From Promethearchaeota archaeon (GTDB lineage: Archaea; Asgardarchaeota; Lokiarchaeia; Sigyniarchaeales; SOKP01): a DNA stretch of 26,473 nucleotides. Below the pieces are notes generated by a model, which was not told where the DNA came from, did not search any database, and worked only from the letters and a program-made list of their open reading frames with translations. The translations under genes were made by a program, and so were the position numbers. The stretch spans positions 1-26,473 of the forward strand of contig JAGXNO010000045.1 in assembly GCA_019894975.1 (NCBI GenBank). Reading direction: 5' to 3'. Below, in pieces: positions 13 to 18,382 of this stretch (its first letter is position 1; the number at the start of each line of letters is the position of its first letter).

Positions 13-594
13 TCAAATTCTTGTTTTGTAGAAATAGAGGTTTTTTCTTCGGTTTTTTTTTAAATTTTCACCAAATTTAATAATGTACCATATCTCTATA
101 GTTACCCCTATAGTTGTAATTATAAACGGGGCAAGAAAATGTATATATTCTATCAGAAATCCACCCAAAACTCCTGTAGGAATTCCACCAATACCTCTAA
201 CAGCATGAACAATTCCAAAGTTTTCCCCTTTTCTGGATTCACCAAGATCAGTCATCATGGATAACTCGGAAGGGATGAAAGTCGATGCTGTTGCACCCCA
301 AAATATTTGACATAGAACCAATAACGGAATTAATAATGATGTATTTCCAAGGCTCCAAGTGATCCAAGTTATAATATTAAGTGGGAAAATTATCAACCCA
401 AAAGATACACAAAAAATCAACGACTTTTTTATTCCAATTTTATGTGTCAATTTACCTGCTGGAATCTGGAAAATGATCATGGAAATACTAAATACAAGGC
501 TCAATATTGCCAAATCATCAACATTTATGTTATAATTTTCCTGTAAACCCGCATTATAGACACTTCCGGTGATCTGCCATATGAATATATCCAT
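13..594 (-). pseudogene. MFS transporter, C-terminal half only (about 6 TM helices); N-terminally truncated
   Basis: Hydrophobic helices with MFS-like motifs (QIPAGKLTHKIGIKK resembles motif A; ESRKGENFG; GGFLIEYI). Only 193 aa. The frame is closed by an in-frame TAA at 619-621, and only 70 bp separate it from the PAN stop, so there is no room for the N-terminal half. Confidence 0.6.
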
Positions 595-1967: not shown

Positions 1968-2819
1968 TCATTGGTTTTTCATTTCATTTAATTTTTTATC
2001 TATCACTTCTCGCATATATTTGAATCCTGGAGTTAAATTCTCATTTAATTTTGGAATCAATTGTCTTAAAGGAAACTTTAAACCTTGACCCGCGCCTGTT
2101 TGAAATAAATTTTCCAATACATAGAAAATGTAGCTTGCAGGCATTCCAATTCCTAGTTCGTGATCTTGAATTCCAGCGAATGAGCGATCACCAGTGCCAG
2201 GGATGACGATTTGAGCTTTTTGGGTAATAAACGGCATTAATCCGCCCTTAGAGCAACTTTCTCCGAAACCTTCAAAGGTTGATTGTATTCTATATTTGCG
2301 TTTGTGTTCATAATTTAATGCGTTTATAATGTATGTGAGTTTTGGTCCATCACAATAAATCAAAATAGAATCTGGAATAACAGGTGTTTCTGTTAGCGGA
2401 GAGACAATTACGCCACGATATGCTAACTCTATTATATTTTTAAAGTTATTCGCATAAGTATGTTCTGCTCTCCTTTTTTCAGCTTGAACGTCTTTTGACC
2501 ATTTTTGACGTACTTGAGATTCTGTGAATTCTTCCATCGTGAGAGGAACCCATCCATGCGCGACGGAGGACGGAGTGCAAAAATTGTCCGCTGCTGTAAT
2601 GGATAATTTTTGGCGAAATCTACGAGCATAAGTAAAAGCTTGGCAGATTGACACATTCTCTCCATTATCGATAGGTCTTCTAACTCCCGGAGGGATCTCC
2701 TTTTTAAGATCTTTTATATACTTTATCGATACTGGAAACGAATCAAGATGTAGTTTATTAAATATTTCTTCTCCAGCATTTTGATAATCCTCTAAAGTCA
2801 TATTTTTATTACTCATCAT
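1968..2819 (-). CDS. DUF169 (COG2043) family protein
   Basis: Motif pattern LDSFPVSIK, CQAFTYARR, NFC, SPL..PDSILIY, ESCS, PGTGDR, ELGIGMP, recognised as typical of DUF169. Confidence 0.8.
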   Translation of the reverse strand: MMSNKNMTLEDYQNAGEEIFNKLHLDSFPVSIKYIKDLKKEIPPGVRRPIDNGENVSICQAFTYARRFRQKLSITAADNFCTPSSVAHGWVPLTMEEFTESQVRQKWSKDVQAEKRRAEHTYANNFKNIIELAYRGVIVSPLTETPVIPDSILIYCDGPKLTYIINALNYEHKRKYRIQSTFEGFGESCSKGGLMPFITQKAQIVIPGTGDRSFAGIQDHELGIGMPASYIFYVLENLFQTGAGQGLKFPLRQLIPKLNENLTPGFKYMREVIDKKLNEMKNQ

Positions 2820-2864: not shown

Positions 2865-3695
2865 TTATTTCTTAATTCTTTTTCTTAAATAATCCCACAC
2901 TCCCGGTTCAACAGGATTTTCGAAAATAGTTCCTGCGGATAACATAGGGTTTAAATGAGGGATTCCAAAAGGAGCAAAACTCAACTTTTTACCTGCAAGA
3001 AATAAATTATCAAGTACCATTTCTAATTTGGATTCAGGTATTGAAAATATCATTTCATGGTCTTGAACTGCGGCTAATACACGATCTCCCATGCCTGGTG
3101 AAACAACTTGACATTCATTTGTTTTATACGTTCGAACGATTCCTTCCTTACAAGAAGCTTCCATTCCGTTAAAGTGGCTTGTAATGCATTCTCCATTGTA
3201 AGTCGCAGCCAATATTAGATGGGAAAGACTTAAAGGCGAAGTATATATCATTACTACATCTGGTTTGACAATTGTCATGTTTAGTGGTGATACCACAAAA
3301 CCTTGAATTTCTCCAAGATCTAACATGACATCTAACTCCCGAGACTTCTTTTCTGCTTCTGCATTTCTTTTGTATCTCGCTTTACTCTCCCAAGCTTTAT
3401 AGACATCATCTGGATCTGCTGTTTGTTCCAAACCAAAATATTTTATTGATACTGGTTTACATGCAATATCGTCAGCTTGTAAATAAAAAGAGAAACCTGA
3501 ATGTCTACACCATGTATAAATTAAACAAGCGGGGATATCTCGACCAAATACTTTATATGGTCGAAGGGCATTTGATGTAACTTCCTCACCCGGAGGTATC
3601 ATTTTTATTGCAACAGGATACGTCATTAACTTCAATTTATTAATGAAGGTTTGACCCATTTCTTTATACTTCTCCAATTCTTCCATAAGCTTCAC
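2865..3695 (-). CDS. DUF169 (COG2043) family protein, paralog of the downstream gene
   Basis: LMTYPVAIK, CLIYTWCR, IAC, SPL..PDVVMIY, EASC, PGMGDR, EMIFSIP. GTG start preceded by an AGGA. Confidence 0.8.
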   Translation of the reverse strand: MKLMEELEKYKEMGQTFINKLKLMTYPVAIKMIPPGEEVTSNALRPYKVFGRDIPACLIYTWCRHSGFSFYLQADDIACKPVSIKYFGLEQTADPDDVYKAWESKARYKRNAEAEKKSRELDVMLDLGEIQGFVVSPLNMTIVKPDVVMIYTSPLSLSHLILAATYNGECITSHFNGMEASCKEGIVRTYKTNECQVVSPGMGDRVLAAVQDHEMIFSIPESKLEMVLDNLFLAGKKLSFAPFGIPHLNPMLSAGTIFENPVEPGVWDYLRKRIKK

Positions 3696-5846: not shown

Positions 5847-6416
5847 TTAGTATTCAATTCCATATCGAGCAGTTAATCCTTGTGACGAATAATAATGCTT
5901 TATCATTCTCATCTCTGTAACTAAATCAGCAATTTCCTTTATTTTAGGATGCATCTTTGGGCCCCCTGTAAGGATTAACTCAACCTGTTCAGGTTTATTT
6001 TTTATCAACTCTAACACAGGCTCAACGGTAATTACATTCATAGATATAGCAACCCCAACCTCATCAAGAATAACAATGTCATAATCATCACTCATAATAG
6101 TTTCCTTAGCAAAATCGAGAGCTTTTGTTCCCTCATTAATATCAAAATCACTTGGTTCTGCTATTAGATCGGGACTGCCAAACTGTTTTAGATCAAAGTT
6201 TGATATGCCTTTAATAGCTTCTATTTCCCCATATTTATAATTTCCTTTCATAAATTGAATCATATAAACTTTAAATCCATGACCCGTTGCGCGTACTCCT
6301 TGACCTATTGCTGCGGTTGTTTTACCCTTAGGCACTACTGTTTATATCACAGTTGTTTTACCCCTTCCAAAGTATACCTGCACTAGACCAAGTTTTAGTC
6401 GTTTTCTATCACTCAT
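5847..6416 (-). CDS. cobO: Cob(I)yrinic acid a,c-diamide adenosyltransferase (CobA/CobO/BtuR family), interrupted by a 30-nt insertion; predicted exons 6416-6358 and 6327-5847, 179 aa spliced
   Basis: ATG 6416 reads MSDRKRLKLGLVQVYFGRGK[TTVI*TVVPK]GKTTAAIGQGVRATGHG...QFMKG...ILDE...ADLVTEM...GIEY. The family N-terminus (GLVQVY.G) lies upstream of the GTG 6335 used by the ORF track, in the same frame but behind a TAA at 6342-6344. Confidence 0.85.
6316..6363. repeat. 12-bp direct repeat GTTGTTTTACCC (6316-6327 and 6352-6363)
   Basis: Two perfect copies 36 nt apart, at the cobO insertion site. Confidence 0.9.
6328..6357 (-). other. Candidate 30-nt BHB/BHL (tRNA-type) intron in cobO mRNA
   Basis: RNA reads GGGU-AA^A-AC(A)ACUGU-GAUAUAA-ACAGU(A)GU-GCCU-AA^G: 4-bp helix GGGU/GCCU, two 3-nt bulges and an internal hairpin. 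Excision restores GGA AGG GGT AAG GGT AAA ACA ACC (GRGKGKTT). Confidence 0.65.
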
Positions 6417-6539: not shown

Positions 6540-7820
6540 ATGAGTTTAATGAATCCTTTAAAATTGATTGAAGGTTTAAAGATTGAACTACAAAAATTTG
6601 GAGAAAAACTAACAGAAATTTTTCCAGAGAGAGTAAAAAGGTTATCAGATCAAAATTTTTCGAAAGTTTGGGGGATAGATGTTAATAAATTAAAAGTCAG
6701 ATTAAGAAAAGGGTCTGAAATAACTACGACAGCTATTGAGGAATTAAGGAATAACTTAAATTAGTTATTAGGTGAAAAATCGGATACTTGTCTGAAATTA
6801 ATTGATAAATTCAATAAAAAAGAGATTCAGCCATTCGACTTTATTGAATCACTGAGGTGGGAAATTGGGCAATATTCTGGTTTAATTGAAGTTCTAGATG
6901 AAGAAATCTCAACTCTTTTATTTGAAAATCCGAGATATATTGTTTTTTTAAAACAATGCTTGAATAATCCTAATTTTCCTCAATTTAATCCAAATAAAAA
7001 ATTTTCAATTCGAAAATTAAATAAATTCAAGGCTATTTTTCATCAGATTTTTGAAGATAAGGCAGAAAATTTCATTTTAATGATTGAGAATTATATTTCA
7101 AACAATTCTGATTTACCAGAATATTCTCATCACCAATATTCTATAAAGTATCCCCATATTTTTGATAAGATTGATACAGTAGAAAAAGCGTATTGGTTAG
7201 GATTCTTTTGTGCTGATGCGAGTTTATTTGTCCGACCTACCAATAAATATGAAATTTGTTTAGAAATTTCAAGTAAAGACAAAGCAGAACTTTACAAACT
7301 TGCGAAATTTGTAGGAATTGACGAAAAGCGTATTAAGGATCGTGTAAGGTTAGTTAAATTAAAGGAAGGGAAGATTTCATTATCAAAGATGTCAAAATTG
7401 AGATTTTTATGTCTCCCAATGGGAGAGGCATTAATTAAAAATGGTAAATTTGGATCCGGTTCCGAAGATGGTAAGAAAAGAGTACCAAATATTATTAAAA
7501 AATTATTAAGAATTGCGTTTAAAAAAGATCATACTTTAACGGAATCACAAGAAGGGAAAATTAGTTTAACTTGGTTATTGGGTTATTTTGATGGTGATGG
7601 TACCGTTTATTATGATAGAAAAGGATTGAAATTTTCTGGGGAAATCATATCATCGAGTAAAGCACTACTCGAAGATATGAAAGATGTATATAAAATAGAA
7701 AATATAATTGGATTTAAAGATAAGAATCAAGGAACCTATAGATTAGCTATTGGACCGGATATCTATAAAAAGATGATGTCAATTTATCCTAAGAGTTTAC
7801 AACGAAAAAGACCCGGATAA
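6540..7820 (+). pseudogene. Free-standing double-motif LAGLIDADG endonuclease-like protein (426 codons) with a single in-frame TAG at 6762-6764
   Basis: ORFs 6540-6764 and 6960-7820 are in one frame, joined by 65 open codons. LAGLIDADG-type helices EKAYWLGFFCADAS (~7182-7223) and WLLGYFDGDGT (~7572-7604). Two approximate N-terminal repeats. Confidence 0.75.
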
Positions 7821-15932: not shown

Positions 15933-16760
15933 TTGATAATGAATTCTCGTGAAAGAGTAATATTAACTTTAAATCATACAGAGCCTGACAAGGTTCCTAT
16001 TGATTTGGGTGATTATGTAACAGGGATTCATATAATCGCATATCGCAACCTCCTTGATTATCTAGGAATCGAAGACAAGAACATTGGATTCAATAATTTT
16101 GCTGGGCAGACGGCAAATCCATGCGAAGAGCTTTTAGAGCGTTTTGAAACCGATACTAGATGGCTTCGAGCACCATTAGCATTTCTGCCAGAGAAGTTTA
16201 AACCTGCAGTGGAAGGAAAGTTCCAAGGAATATGGGACCAATTTGGTGTGTTTTGGGGAATCGATGCAGAGAAAGAACTTGATGAAATTCTCTACTATGA
16301 TCCTGTTATTAATCCGTTGAGTGAGATGACAACAGTCAAGCAAATCAAAGATTATAACTGGCCTGACGGAACGGATGATAATCACATGATCGGCCTAAGA
16401 GAAAGAGCAAAGCGACTAAGAGAATCCACACCGTATGCTATTGTTACAAGCCCGTATATAGGTAATCTTTTCGAGACCACAACATGGCTATTCGGATTCG
16501 ACAAGGCGTTACGTCATCTTGTAAGAAATCCTGAATTAATTGTTGCTGCCATGGAAGAACTGGAAAAGTACTGGTATGACTATGCTACAACATTCTTGAA
16601 TAAGATTAAGTTTGGGGATGAACATTATGTGGATATAGTTTGCCTTCAAGGAGACCTTGGTACACAATCAGGACCCTTTATGAATCTAAAGAGAATTTAT
16701 GAAATACATAGATGCCTGCTTCAACTGTTACTGTATGAGAAATCTCGTCAATGTCAATAA
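15933..16760 (+). pseudogene. Uroporphyrinogen decarboxylase / MtaA-CmuA methyltransferase family protein, C-terminally truncated near 16703
   Basis: MNSRERV..TLNHTEPDKVPIDLG, WDQFGVFW, YNWPD, GDLGTQSGPFM. The C-terminal third is missing; the last ~18 codons are the antisense of another gene. Confidence 0.75.
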
Positions 16761-17163
16761 TTCGGTCCAATTTTTTCAAATCTAAAATGATCCCACCAGA
16801 AGGAGCTGTGATCCCGAGACCACTTCCCCCAGCGAAAGGCACTATAGGAATAATGTACTGATTTGCTAAACTGACAATTTCCTGTACTTCTTCTGTCGTT
16901 TCAGGAAAAACAGCAAAATCAGGCATTACAATTCTGTATACTCCCTTAGCTACTGTGGTTCTTCTTAGAGGAATACCCCCAGGTAATTATGAGTACTTGT
17001 AAGAGAGTAGTTGTGATTCATCAGTGACAACATCCTCCTTACCAACTATCTTCGTTAGAGCCATTTGAATTTCTAACTGCTTCTCTTCAAGCTCAGGTTT
17101 CCTCCTTAGATATGAGGTGAACGAGAGCTTGAGCTTTTCTTTCTCAATCGTTTTATAAAACAT
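16678..17163 (-). pseudogene. FAD-binding oxidoreductase (GlcD / FAD_binding_4 type), N-terminal fragment with an internal TAA at 16987-16989
   Basis: The two minus-strand ORFs are in one frame: IVGKEDVVTD..LLSYKYS*LPGG...MPDFAVFPETTEEVQEIV...IPIVPFAGGSG...GGIILDLKKLDRIIDID...VTVEAG, after which family-like sequence ends near 16705. Likely start ATG 17163 after GGAG. Confidence 0.75.
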
Positions 17164-17320
17164 CAATTCTCCATTCTTTTTGATTTTATTTGTGCTTAAA
17201 CTTAAATATATAAGCAAATAATCCTTCTAAAAAAAAATTATAAATGATGAATTGAAAAAATAATTTTTTAACTAAAGCTCTTGAAAACTAATTAAAATAG
17301 AGAAAAGGCTGTCTTTTTCA

Positions 17321-18382
17321 CAAGTCTTCAAAAAATTATCTAAAATTGCTCATGCAGACACCTATATTTATAATAGGTTATGCGACGTAATCGTAACTGA
17401 TCCCGCTAATGGGGTAATGGGGATTTTAAATTATGATACGTTGAAATGGGATGAGAATTTAGCAGATAAGTATGAAATCCCCGTTGAATTATGGCCTGAT
17501 GTTTATTTCTATAGAGATTTTATAGGAGAATTATCTAATGTAGCTGCTAAAGATTTAGGATTGAAGCAAAACATTCCAATATTTATGGGAGGAGGGGATC
17601 AACAATGTGCAGCATTAGGATTAGGAGTTATTGAAGAAGGGCAAGCTAAGATTACTACAGGTACTGGAACTTTTATCGATTATGTTACTGATAGAAGAAT
17701 AAAGCCATCTGAAGAAGCTCCCATCTTTTCTTACCCCTCTGTTGTCAAAGGTAAGTGGAATATTGAAGGTTCTATAATTGGAACAGGATCTATTCTTAAA
17801 TGGTTTAAAGATAATTTTTCTCAATTCCAAATTAACCAAAGTATTGAAGGGAACAAAAATATTTATGATATGTTGGCAAATGAAGCATCAACTATACCAC
17901 CTGGTAGTGAAGGTTTACTATTCATACCTTTATACATCTTTAAAAAAGGTACTATACATGGATTAGGGTGGAATCATACAAGAGCTCATTTTATACGTGC
18001 CATTATGGAATCTGCTTGCTTAGGTGCTCAAATGAATCTTCAATTGTTAGAAGCTATAGGATGGAAAAAAGTATCAGAAGTAAGAGTTGATGGTGGGGCT
18101 ATGAACAGCCCATTATGGGCGCAAATTCTTGCTGACGTAACTTCTAAAAAGATTCTAATTCCTGAAGTAAAAGATGCTGCTGCTTTAGGTGCTGGAATAT
18201 TAGTCTTCTGCAATTCTAAGAGATATAAAAGTTTAGATAATGCGGTAACTAATATGATAAGATTTACTGATGTAAAAGAGCCAATTGAACACAACGTAAG
18301 CGTATATAAAACATTATACAGGATTTTTGTGCAAGAACTCATCAATATTGATGGGAAAAAAAGAGTAACAAGAGACTTATAA
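17321..18382 (+). pseudogene. FGGY family carbohydrate kinase (xylulokinase/glycerol kinase-like), N-terminally truncated
   Basis: GGGDQQCAALG, TTGTGT, PPGSEGLLFIP, RAIMES, DGGAMNSPLWAQILADV, AAALGAG. The frame extends upstream of ATG 17417 (QVFKKLSKIAHADTYIYNRLCDVIVTDP) to a TGA at 17282-17284. The N-terminal DxGTT phosphate-1 motif is absent. Confidence 0.72.

What the first reader, a model, noticed from the sequence alone, without database searches (positions are those of the whole stretch)
6328..6357. Candidate bulge-helix-bulge micro-intron in a protein-coding gene (cobO) of a probable Asgard archaeon
Seen: from ATG 6416 the minus strand reads ...GTA TAC TTT GGA AGG GGT AA|A ACA ACT GTG ATA TAA ACA GTA GTG CCT AA|G GGT AAA ACA ACC GCA GCA. 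The 30 nt between the bars hold an in-frame TAA and fold as AC(A)ACUGU-GAUAUAA-ACAGU(A)GU. The hairpin is closed by a 3-nt bulge (AAA), a 4-bp helix GGGU/GCCU (two G-C, two G-U) and a second 3-nt segment (AAG). Possible exon-exon pairings lie beyond it (UACU/GGUA; UGC-A-GGU/ACCGCA). The pair next to the outer bulge is G/G, so this is the relaxed bulge-helix-loop form. Established: the archaeal tRNA-splicing endonuclease EndA cuts after the second nucleotide of each bulge and RtcB ligates; CobA/BtuR proteins carry a GxGKGKTT P-loop; the well-known archaeal mRNA intron is the one in crenarchaeal cbf5. Applying the EndA rule gives YFGRGKGKTTAAIG exactly, in frame, in a 179-aa protein with no other stop or frameshift. 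Inference: this is an EndA-type intron in a metabolic mRNA, so B12 adenosylation would depend on splicing. It also suggests such micro-introns may be hidden as apparent pseudogenes or wrong starts in Asgard genomes.
Basis: partly seen in the sequence, partly recalled or inferred. Interest (0 to 1): 0.92.

Follow-up and report, generated by a model that had tools for sequence, protein, structure and literature searches.

The report
tRNA-type mini-intron splitting Asgard cobO
The only vitamin-B12 adenosyltransferase gene (cobO) found in this Asgard archaeon is broken inside its ATP-binding loop by a 30-base hairpin shaped like an archaeal tRNA intron, and comparison of 29 such genes indicates it is cut out of the mRNA, which the papers I could search confirm for only one archaeal coding sequence (cbf5).

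Summary
On the minus strand, cobO (start ATG 6416) is interrupted at 6357-6328 by 30 nt carrying an in-frame TAA. Removing them gives a 179-aa CobA/CobO protein with the canonical GRGKGKTT P-loop.

The insert is not a lesion. Inserts of 29-33 nt lie at the same codon in 29 loci (5 of 44 sister species plus metagenome contigs). Eleven have lengths that shift the frame.

Evidence for splicing:
- Only one pair of cut positions restores FGRGKGKTT in all 21 distinct sequences, and it is the pair the EndA rule predicts.
- The 4-bp helix and 8-bp inner hairpin are paired in 96% of cells (32-60% when slid), with four compensatory pairs.
- An unguided RNAalifold run on 139 nt finds only this element.
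- Exon synonymous sites inside the helix are fixed in carriers (Arg third base G in 23/26 versus 3/82 non-carriers).
- Exon 1 stays under purifying selection.
- The genome encodes two EndA paralogues and RtcB.
- purA and eS30 in the same genome obey the same rule.

The outer helix is absent, so this is the relaxed HBh' form. Earlier notes of this scan report the same class in other genes of this genome and in other Asgard genomes. The papers I could search do not.

The parts
6358..6416 (-). cobO exon 1: ATG 6416 to the second base of the first P-loop Lys codon (MSDRKRLKLGLVQVYFGRG + AA)
   Evidence: The start is homologous to the MSxxRKRLK start of intron-less orthologues. Among carriers the last 11 codons show 0 nonsynonymous against 1-8 synonymous codon differences per pair.
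6328..6357 (-). 30-nt HBh'-type (relaxed bulge-helix-bulge) intron, AACAACUGUGAUAUAAACAGUAGUGCCUAA, with an in-frame TAA at 6344-6342
   Evidence: It is single-copy in the genome and has no Rfam match.
5847..6327 (-). cobO exon 2: third base of the Lys codon, then GKTTAAIG... to stop TAA 5849-5847
   Evidence: Pfam PF02572 positions 13-172 of 172, E 7.6e-50. It aligns to solved CobA structures 1g5r and 4hut from the P-loop KGKTT onward.
6360..6363 (-). Helix H, 5' strand (exon nucleotides GGGU: third base of the Arg codon plus the Gly codon)
   Evidence: Pairs with 6333-6330 and is paired in 97.6% of cells across 21 sequences. These synonymous sites are constrained in carriers only.
6357..6359 (-). 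5' three-nucleotide bulge AAA; inferred cut between 6358 and 6357
   Evidence: G053 and G044 have AAU here, which places the third bulge base in the intron.
6349..6356 (-). Inner helix h', 5' arm ACAACUGU
   Evidence: Four of its 8 pairs show double-sided compensatory changes.
6334..6341 (-). Inner helix h', 3' arm ACAGUAGU
6330..6333 (-). Helix H, 3' strand (intron nucleotides GCCU)
   Evidence: Pair types seen across carriers are GU/AU/GC, GC/GU and UG/CG/UA.
6327..6329 (-). 3' three-nucleotide segment AAG, not closed by an outer helix; inferred cut between 6328 and 6327
   Evidence: The third base is always a purine, so it completes a Lys codon, while the first two bases vary (AA, AU, AG). 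No outer helix is found.

Best explanation
The 30 nt at 6357-6328 are a relaxed bulge-helix-bulge (HBh') intron in the cobO pre-mRNA.

In the transcript, exon bases GGGU (Arg third base plus the Gly codon) pair with intron bases GCCU to form the 4-bp central helix. An 8-bp intron hairpin stacks on it. That leaves a 3-nt bulge (AAA) on the 5' side and a 3-nt unpaired segment (AAG) on the 3' side.

The inferred steps are as follows. The host's heteromeric tRNA-splicing endonuclease (two EndA paralogues, on contigs C22 and C55) cuts after the second nucleotide of each 3-nt segment. RtcB joins the exons and probably circularises the intron. The join rebuilds the Lys codon AA|G and the Walker-A loop GRGKGKTT, so a full 179-aa ATP:corrinoid adenosyltransferase can be translated. 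Unspliced mRNA would give only a 28-residue peptide, or a 162-aa protein lacking half of its P-loop.

Shown here: the structure, its conservation and covariation, the single-nucleotide position of the boundaries, selection on both exons and on exon bases within the helix, and the presence of the enzyme genes. Inferred: the cleavage and ligation themselves.
For: 1. Inserts of 29, 30, 31, 32 or 33 nt lie at the identical codon in 29 loci (21 distinct core sequences): 5 of 44 congeneric species genomes plus metagenome contigs. Eleven of the 29 have lengths that are not multiples of 3, and all 29 unspliced reads hit stop codons.
2. When both cut sites are slid by -3 to +3, only the canonical pair (0,0) restores FGRGKGKTT in 21 of 21 distinct carriers. 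Shift +1,+1 gives 20 of 21 and every other combination gives 8 or fewer.
3. 96.0% of cells are paired, against 32-60% with the 3' partner slid. Four pairs carry double-sided compensatory changes (18 cells), and 0 of 500 shuffles reach the observed paired fraction or covariation score.
4. RNAalifold on 139 columns, given no structure, predicts exactly these 12 pairs and nothing else.
5. Exon synonymous sites within helix H differ by carrier status. The Arg third base is G in 23 of 26 carriers and 3 of 82 non-carriers. The Gly third base is a pyrimidine in 26 of 26 carriers and 44 of 82 non-carriers.
6. Among carriers, the last 11 codons of exon 1 show 0 nonsynonymous against 1-8 synonymous codon differences per pair. 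Exon 2 synonymous-to-nonsynonymous ratios resemble those of non-carriers. No carrier has a second lesion.
7. The genome has two EndA paralogues and RtcB. Paralogue 1 is closest to chains 3p1z_B, 3ajv_B and 2zyz_B. [quoted passage not shown]
8. The same cut rule restores purA (32 nt, rebuilding GLSWG-D-EGKGK) and fits eS30 (31 nt) in the same genome.
9. cobO is the only CobA-type match in the genome and no PduO-type enzyme was found.
Against: There is no RNA evidence.

The fold of the single sequence is not significantly more stable than shuffles (z = -0.95 and -1.3).

The outer exon-exon helix of a canonical BHB is absent, so the 3' cut site is not in a closed bulge. Two carriers have an A.C mismatch in helix H, and several have one mismatch in the inner helix.

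The sequences compared are related, so the shuffle and Fisher figures overstate independence.

The L1 loop and catalytic residues of the EndA paralogues were not examined.
Confidence: 0.85

Rival explanations
1. The insert created a new start: translation begins at the GTG/ATG inside the insert (GTG 6335 in this window) and yields a working 162-aa CobO. Exon 1 is then a dead remnant.
For: Most carriers have ATG or GTG three codons before GKTT (MP[IKRM]GKTT), always in frame with exon 2. Public gene callers predict exactly these 162-aa proteins.
Against: Exon 1 is under strong purifying selection in carriers (0 nonsynonymous in its last 11 codons), and its synonymous sites are tuned to pair with the insert. 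L127 has ATA at that position, not ATG/GTG/TTG. The product would lack the first glycines of the Walker-A loop GxxxxGKT, which all 82 distinct non-carriers keep as GRGKGKTT. That the NTG overlaps helix positions needed for pairing is inference.
Confidence: 0.04
2. A plain inactivating insertion: cobO is a pseudogene in the carriers.
For: The insert carries stop codons, and the window does contain genuinely decayed genes: an FGGY kinase lacking its N-terminus and an FAD_binding_4 fragment.
Against: All 29 carriers, spanning about 70-99% protein identity, have no second lesion. Selection on both exons is unrelaxed. The insert's structure covaries. cobO is the only adenosyltransferase found in the genome.
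Confidence: 0.03
3. Translational recoding: ribosomes bypass the insert (as in phage T4 gene 60) or read through or shift frame.
For: A stop codon and a hairpin lie just after a Gly-Lys take-off region. In G000 and G024 an 11-12-nt direct repeat (GGGTAAAACAAC in G000) flanks most of the insert.
Against: Matched take-off and landing codons are not conserved: the landing triplets are AUA, AUG, AGA or AAA, and the repeat is absent in most carriers. Hopping between the Gly codons would delete two P-loop residues. Lengths of 29-33 nt and multiple stops exclude readthrough or a single frameshift. The covarying 4-bp exon-intron helix, with boundaries exactly 2 nt into each flanking triplet, is specific to EndA substrates.
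Confidence: 0.03
4. The insert is removed at the RNA level, but by something other than EndA and RtcB: another nuclease-ligase pair, or excision of the DNA.
For: No enzymology was done here, and the 3' site lacks a closed bulge.
Against: The geometry and cut positions match the EndA rule to the nucleotide. 30 nt is too small for a self-splicing intron (established knowledge). Every DNA assembly of a carrier retains the insert.
Confidence: 0.05

Closest known systems
BHB intron in the cbf5 (pseudouridine synthase) pre-mRNA of Crenarchaeota (Desulfurococcales, Sulfolobales; Watanabe 2002; Yokobori 2009, PMC2738675)
   Same: A short intron inside an archaeal protein-coding sequence that often has a relaxed cleavage motif. 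It is thought to depend on a hetero-oligomeric, broad-specificity splicing endonuclease, and it shows lineage-specific presence and absence.
   Different: It is in another gene (a metabolic P-loop enzyme, not an RNA-modification enzyme) and another phylum (Asgard). Presence and absence vary among species of a single genus, and alleles are mosaic around the intron. Splicing of cbf5 was confirmed experimentally; here it is not.
[quoted passage not shown]
   Same: The motif is the same: a 4-bp helix flanked by 3-nt segments, cut after the second nucleotide, with one outer helix missing. The size range and presumed enzymes are also the same.
   Different: The host RNA is an mRNA with no tRNA body to help recognition. 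The exon half of the helix must also encode Arg-Gly, which shows up as codon-choice constraint.
BHB intron in the 5' UTR of Haloferax volcanii HVO_1309 (PMC7714728)
   Same: An mRNA substrate of the archaeal splicing endonuclease that gives a circular excised RNA.
   Different: That intron lies in an untranslated leader and does not interrupt the reading frame. Here the coding sequence cannot be read without excision.
IRE1/RtcB-dependent splicing of XBP1/HAC1 mRNA in eukaryotes (from my own knowledge)
   Same: Non-spliceosomal removal of a small (26-nt in XBP1) hairpin-bounded intron from a coding sequence, with ligation by RtcB in metazoans.
   Different: The endonuclease (IRE1) and the motif are different, and the eukaryotic event is regulated by stress. 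Nothing here indicates regulation.

Membership tests
Archaeal BHB-type intron (EndA substrate) | Central 4-bp helix flanked by two 3-nt bulges on opposite strands | tested here: met
   The 4-bp helix is paired in 97.6% of cells across 21 sequences, and the 3-nt 5' bulge is closed on both sides. The 3' 3-nt segment follows the helix at the correct position but is not closed by an outer helix. This is therefore the relaxed HBh' form, not the strict hBHBh' form.
Archaeal BHB-type intron (EndA substrate) | Outer exon-exon helix h closing the 3' bulge (strict form only) | tested here: not met
   RNAalifold on 139 columns finds no conserved pairing outside H and h'. The position next to the 3' segment is G/G in G000. 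Relaxed forms lacking this helix are known substrates of (alpha-beta)2 EndA (PMC5829648).
Archaeal BHB-type intron (EndA substrate) | Exon boundaries lie after the second nucleotide of each 3-nt segment | tested here: met
   Only this pair of positions restores FGRGKGKTT in 21 of 21 distinct carriers.
Archaeal BHB-type intron (EndA substrate) | Structure maintained by compensatory substitutions | tested here: met
   Four pairs show double-sided changes (18 cells), and 0 of 500 shuffles reach the observed covariation score.
Archaeal BHB-type intron (EndA substrate) | Host encodes a splicing endonuclease able to cut relaxed motifs, and an RNA ligase | tested here: met
   There are two PF01974 paralogues (C22, 101 bits; C55, 66 bits) and RtcB (563 bits). 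Heterotetramer formation and the L1 loop were not examined. Their presence in Asgard is taken from PMC5829648.
Archaeal BHB-type intron (EndA substrate) | Actual cleavage and ligation: spliced mRNA and a circular intron | not testable with these tools
No public protein equals a spliced product.
CobA/CobO/BtuR ATP:corrinoid adenosyltransferase (PF02572) | Significant match to the family profile over its whole length | tested here: met
   Exon 2 covers profile positions 13-172 of 172 at E 7.6e-50. It aligns to solved CobA 1g5r and 4hut.
CobA/CobO/BtuR ATP:corrinoid adenosyltransferase (PF02572) | Intact Walker-A P-loop GxGKGKTT | tested here: met
   It is present only after excision: YFGRGKGKTTAAIG. 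That is identical to all 82 distinct intron-less relatives.

The most novel reading that the evidence does not exclude
cobO is one instance of a genome-wide, EndA/RtcB-dependent mRNA-splicing layer in this Asgard genus. Tens of protein genes, housekeeping and metabolic, would carry 29-37-nt tRNA-type introns. These introns are polymorphic between sister species. They co-evolve with the codons they pair with, and they are gained, lost or moved between alleles by homologous recombination that breaks at the intron. In this reading the closest archaeal relatives of eukaryotes already depend on routine splicing of coding mRNAs, and standard annotation hides it as truncated genes.
Probability: 0.6. 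Interest if true: 0.9.

Novelty: new member of a known kind. Interest (0 to 1): 0.8.

Why it matters
In the papers I could search, splicing of an archaeal coding sequence by the tRNA-splicing endonuclease is confirmed for one gene only, cbf5 in Crenarchaeota. There is also one 5'-UTR case in Haloferax (PMC2738675, PMC7714728).

A second, unrelated gene in Asgard archaea, together with purA and eS30 in the same genome, shows that this route is not a one-gene curiosity. It is found here in the lineage closest to eukaryotes.

The cobO case is unusually informative. Its 29 carriers and 82 distinct non-carriers show the boundaries to the nucleotide, covariation, and the imprint of the intron on exon codon choice.

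It also has a practical consequence. Public annotations call these genes as 162-aa proteins starting inside the intron, so metabolic reconstructions and pseudogene counts for Asgard genomes are affected.

Finally, it gives a small, defined substrate of about 60 nt for testing what an Asgard EndA recognises outside a tRNA.

Tried and rejected

2. Joined message among public proteins. No protein among the 120 best relatives equals the spliced product of G000 or of any carrier. P0019, whose exon 2 is identical to carrier L069, comes from metagenome DNA scaffolds and is an intron-less mosaic allele, not an RNA product.

3. De novo genome-wide census. I scanned for BHB/HBh' geometry whose excision fuses open frames, using a parallel-pairing decoy as control, then added codon-usage scores, a no-frame-open-across filter, and helix GC and bulge filters. 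Real and decoy counts stayed nearly equal (for example 41 against 21 perfect-helix hits with both flanks at least 60 codons, and 28+31 against 27+40 after the GC filter). The motif carries too little information, the scan also missed eS30, and I draw no count from it.

4. Long-range exon-exon helix seen in the 111-nt fold. It is not conserved.

5. MITE-like or repeated element. The insert is single-copy. A 16-nt match on C11 is chance.

6. Known RNA family. No Rfam match.

7. Insert tied to a rearrangement. Carrier G002 keeps the upstream neighbour of non-carriers, and carrier L069 keeps the conserved upstream motif.

8. Counting gains and losses on the cobO tree (at least 3 events forced). 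This is unreliable, because exon 2 recombines independently of exon 1 plus the intron.

9. cdhC lead from earlier notes. The PF03598 domain lies in an intact 327-aa frame, and I did not locate the reported insert.

Full report
**What is there.** The window is a whole 26.5-kb contig (C115) of a 3.9-Mb, 95% complete metagenome-assembled genome. Sources name its closest CobO relatives as Promethearchaeota, Lokiarchaeota and other Asgard archaea.

On the minus strand, ATG 6416 opens a frame reading MSDRKRLKLGLVQVYFGRGKTTVI*. The frame then resumes as ...PKGKTTAAIGQ... down to stop 5849-5847. Removing 6357-6328 gives a 179-aa protein with YFGRGKGKTTAAIG. Exon 2 alone matches Pfam CobA_CobO_BtuR from profile position 13 to the end (E 7.6e-50), and it aligns to solved CobA structures from the P-loop KGKTT onward.

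GGGU (exon) pairs with GCCU (intron 3' end). A 3-nt bulge AAA follows, then an 8-position inner helix with one A.A mismatch and a 7-nt loop holding the TAA. On a single sequence this fold is not significant (z = -1.3 and -0.95), so the case has to rest on comparison.

**Comparison.** Of the 54 genomes searched in this genus (G000 included), 44 have a cobO orthologue. Five of those 44 (G000, G002, G024, G053, G044) carry an insert at the same codon, and the rest read GRGKGKTT without interruption. A scan of metagenome contigs raised this to 29 carrier loci with 21 distinct core sequences. Insert lengths are 29 (5 loci), 30 (9), 31 (4), 32 (2) and 33 nt (9). Eleven of them shift the frame, and every unspliced read runs into stops. 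That excludes a tolerated in-frame insertion, readthrough or a single frameshift.

**Boundaries.** I slid both cut sites independently by -3 to +3 and asked in how many distinct carriers the junction still reads FGRGKGKTT. Only the pair (0,0) works in all 21. Shift +1,+1 works in 20 and fails in the G053 type, whose bulge is AAU. All other combinations work in 8 or fewer. Coding constraint alone therefore places the exon ends after the second nucleotide of each 3-nt segment that flanks the 4-bp helix. That is the position at which archaeal EndA cuts a BHB motif. The cut rule itself is established knowledge, and PMC5829648 describes the motif.

**Structure.** On the 57-column alignment A1, the 12 pairs are formed in 96.0% of cells, against 32-60% when the 3' partner is slid by 1-3 columns. 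Four inner-helix pairs show double-sided compensatory changes (UA/CG, AU/GC, AU/GC, UA/CG; 18 cells). None of 500 shuffles reaches the observed paired fraction, compensatory-cell count or covariation score. Helix H varies by single-sided changes that keep pairing (GU/AU/GC, GC/GU, UG/CG/UA), with an A.C in two sequences.

Given 139 columns and no structural hint, RNAalifold returns exactly these 12 pairs and nothing else. So there is no conserved outer exon-exon helix.

**Selection.** Among carriers, the last 11 codons of exon 1 show 0 nonsynonymous against 1-8 synonymous codon differences per pair. Exon 2 has synonymous-to-nonsynonymous ratios like those of non-carriers. No carrier has a second lesion.

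The exon bases that form helix H are synonymous sites, and they are fixed only in carriers. The Arg codon ends in G in 23 of 26 carriers but in 3 of 82 non-carriers. The following Gly codon ends in a pyrimidine in 26 of 26 carriers against 44 of 82 non-carriers. These sequences are related, so the nominal P values overstate independence. Even so, the direction is what an exon-intron RNA helix under selection predicts, and a DNA lesion, a new start or a bypass signal does not predict it.

**Machinery and context.**
- G000 encodes two EndA paralogues (C22 and C55) and RtcB.
- Paralogue 1 is closest to chains 3p1z_B, 3ajv_B and 2zyz_B. From my own knowledge, these are catalytic subunits of crenarchaeal heterotetramers. 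Paralogue 2 is more divergent.
- cobO is the only CobA-type match in the genome, and no PduO-type adenosyltransferase was found.

**Not a one-off.** Following leads from earlier notes of this scan, I located purA and eS30 in G000 and applied the same mechanical rule.
- In purA, a 32-nt insert (H GGGG/CCCU, bulges AGG and AAA) is removed. This rebuilds GLSWG-D-EGKGKFVDY, with the Asp codon GAC formed across the junction.
- In eS30, a 31-nt insert fits (H CUGG/CUAG paired 4 of 4, both bulges AAA) and joins GSLTKAG to KVKMQTPK.

My own de novo census was noise-limited and gives no count. The scan's earlier notes describe the same class in more genes of this genome and in other Asgard genomes, some with RNA-derived contigs. 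I did not verify those notes.

**Rivals.**
- A new internal start giving 162 aa is what public gene callers predict. It is contradicted by selection on exon 1, by codon tuning of exon 1 to the insert, by the lack of a start codon in L127, and by the loss of half the Walker-A loop.
- A pseudogene is contradicted by 29 otherwise intact carriers. True remnants in the same window look quite different: an FGGY kinase lacking about 144 profile positions and an FAD_binding_4 fragment.
- Translational bypass lacks conserved take-off and landing codons, and hopping between the Gly codons would shorten the P-loop.
- A repeated DNA element is excluded by copy number.

**Side observation.** Carrier and non-carrier alleles are mosaic around the intron.
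- G000 is 96-100% identical to L102 through the upstream region, exon 1 and the intron, then 78% identical from the first base of exon 2.
- G000's exon 2 and downstream region are 94% identical to the intron-less L059, which is unrelated upstream.
- Carrier L069 and intron-less L140 are 98.6% identical from exon 2 onward and unrelated upstream.
- L060 and P0002 repeat the pattern at protein level.
- Carriers resemble each other somewhat more in exon 1 than in exon 2.

An assembly chimera is unlikely, because intron-bearing and intron-less alleles share only about 8-12 nt at the junction (inference). Recombination that ends at the heterology is the simplest reading. It means the scattered distribution on the cobO tree cannot be turned into a count of gains and losses.

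**Literature.** In the library I could search, cbf5 is the only archaeal coding sequence with confirmed BHB splicing, and one 5'-UTR case is known (PMC2738675, PMC7714728). Asgard papers report abundant tRNA introns but no mRNA introns (PMC11291895 and bioRxiv 10.64898/2026.10.13.758758). Subscription-only papers were not searchable.

**Verdict.** This is very probably (0.85) a relaxed BHB intron removed from the cobO mRNA by the tRNA-splicing enzymes. It is a new member of a kind known in print from one gene. Direct RNA or enzymatic proof is missing.

Noticed in passing
window 6327-6328 (3' splice site); loci L102, L103, L059, L069, L140, L060: Alleles are mosaic with a breakpoint at the intron. 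G000 matches L102/L103 at 96-100% upstream and through the intron, but at 78% from the first base of exon 2. Its exon 2 and downstream region match intron-less L059 at 94%. L069/L140 and L060/P0002 repeat the pattern. This suggests recombination between intron-bearing and intron-less alleles that ends at the heterology.
   Followed up: partly
G000:C86 about 62.9 kb (+), locus L143: purA is split by a 32-nt insert (H GGGG/CCCU, bulges AGG and AAA). The same cut rule rebuilds the Asp codon GAC and the motif GLSWGDEGKGK. The gene lies at a contig end.
   Followed up: yes
G000:C108 about 5.9 kb (+), locus L146: The ribosomal protein eS30 gene is split by a 31-nt insert (H CUGG/CUAG, bulges AAA and AAA) that joins GSLTKAG to KVKMQTPK. 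Two registers give the same product.
   Followed up: yes
window 6960-7820 (+): A free-standing LAGLIDADG_3 homing-endonuclease-like ORF (286 aa) lies just upstream of cobO. The whole upstream region of G000 is unlike that of congeners, which share a roughly 264-aa divergent neighbour and a conserved AATAATAGAGTATTTCAAAATATAATAAATTA motif before the cobO start.
   Followed up: partly
window 17285-18382 (+) and 16681-16986 (-): These are true gene remnants. One is an FGGY carbohydrate kinase lacking the first ~144 profile positions of its N domain. The other, on the opposite strand, is a fragment of an FAD_binding_4 domain (positions 1-73 of 139) that overlaps the end of ORF 15933-16760. No intron-like explanation was found.
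   Followed up: partly
window 13-594 (-): An MFS_1 transporter covers only profile positions 9-166 of 347 and ends at a stop 12 nt from the contig edge. It may be truncated, or it may be interrupted just at the contig end.
   Followed up: no
window 6352-6363 and 6316-6327 (-): There is a 12-nt direct repeat, GGGTAAAACAAC (end of exon 1 plus start of the intron, against the start of exon 2), so the unspliced frame reads GRGKTT, mimicking the P-loop. A similar repeat is in G024, but it is absent or inconsistent in most carriers. It may be a footprint of origin or a coincidence of Lys-Thr-Thr codons.
   Followed up: partly
proteins P0004, P0007, P0011, P0055 and about 20 other clusters: Public annotations, including NCBI records named cob(I)yrinic acid a,c-diamide adenosyltransferase, call a 162-aa protein that starts at the ATG/GTG inside the intron. 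The gene is therefore systematically mis-started in databases.
   Followed up: yes
window 1968-2819 and 2865-3695 (-): Two tandem DUF169 paralogues (283 and 276 aa) lie next to a proteasome-activating AAA ATPase (665-1876).
   Followed up: no
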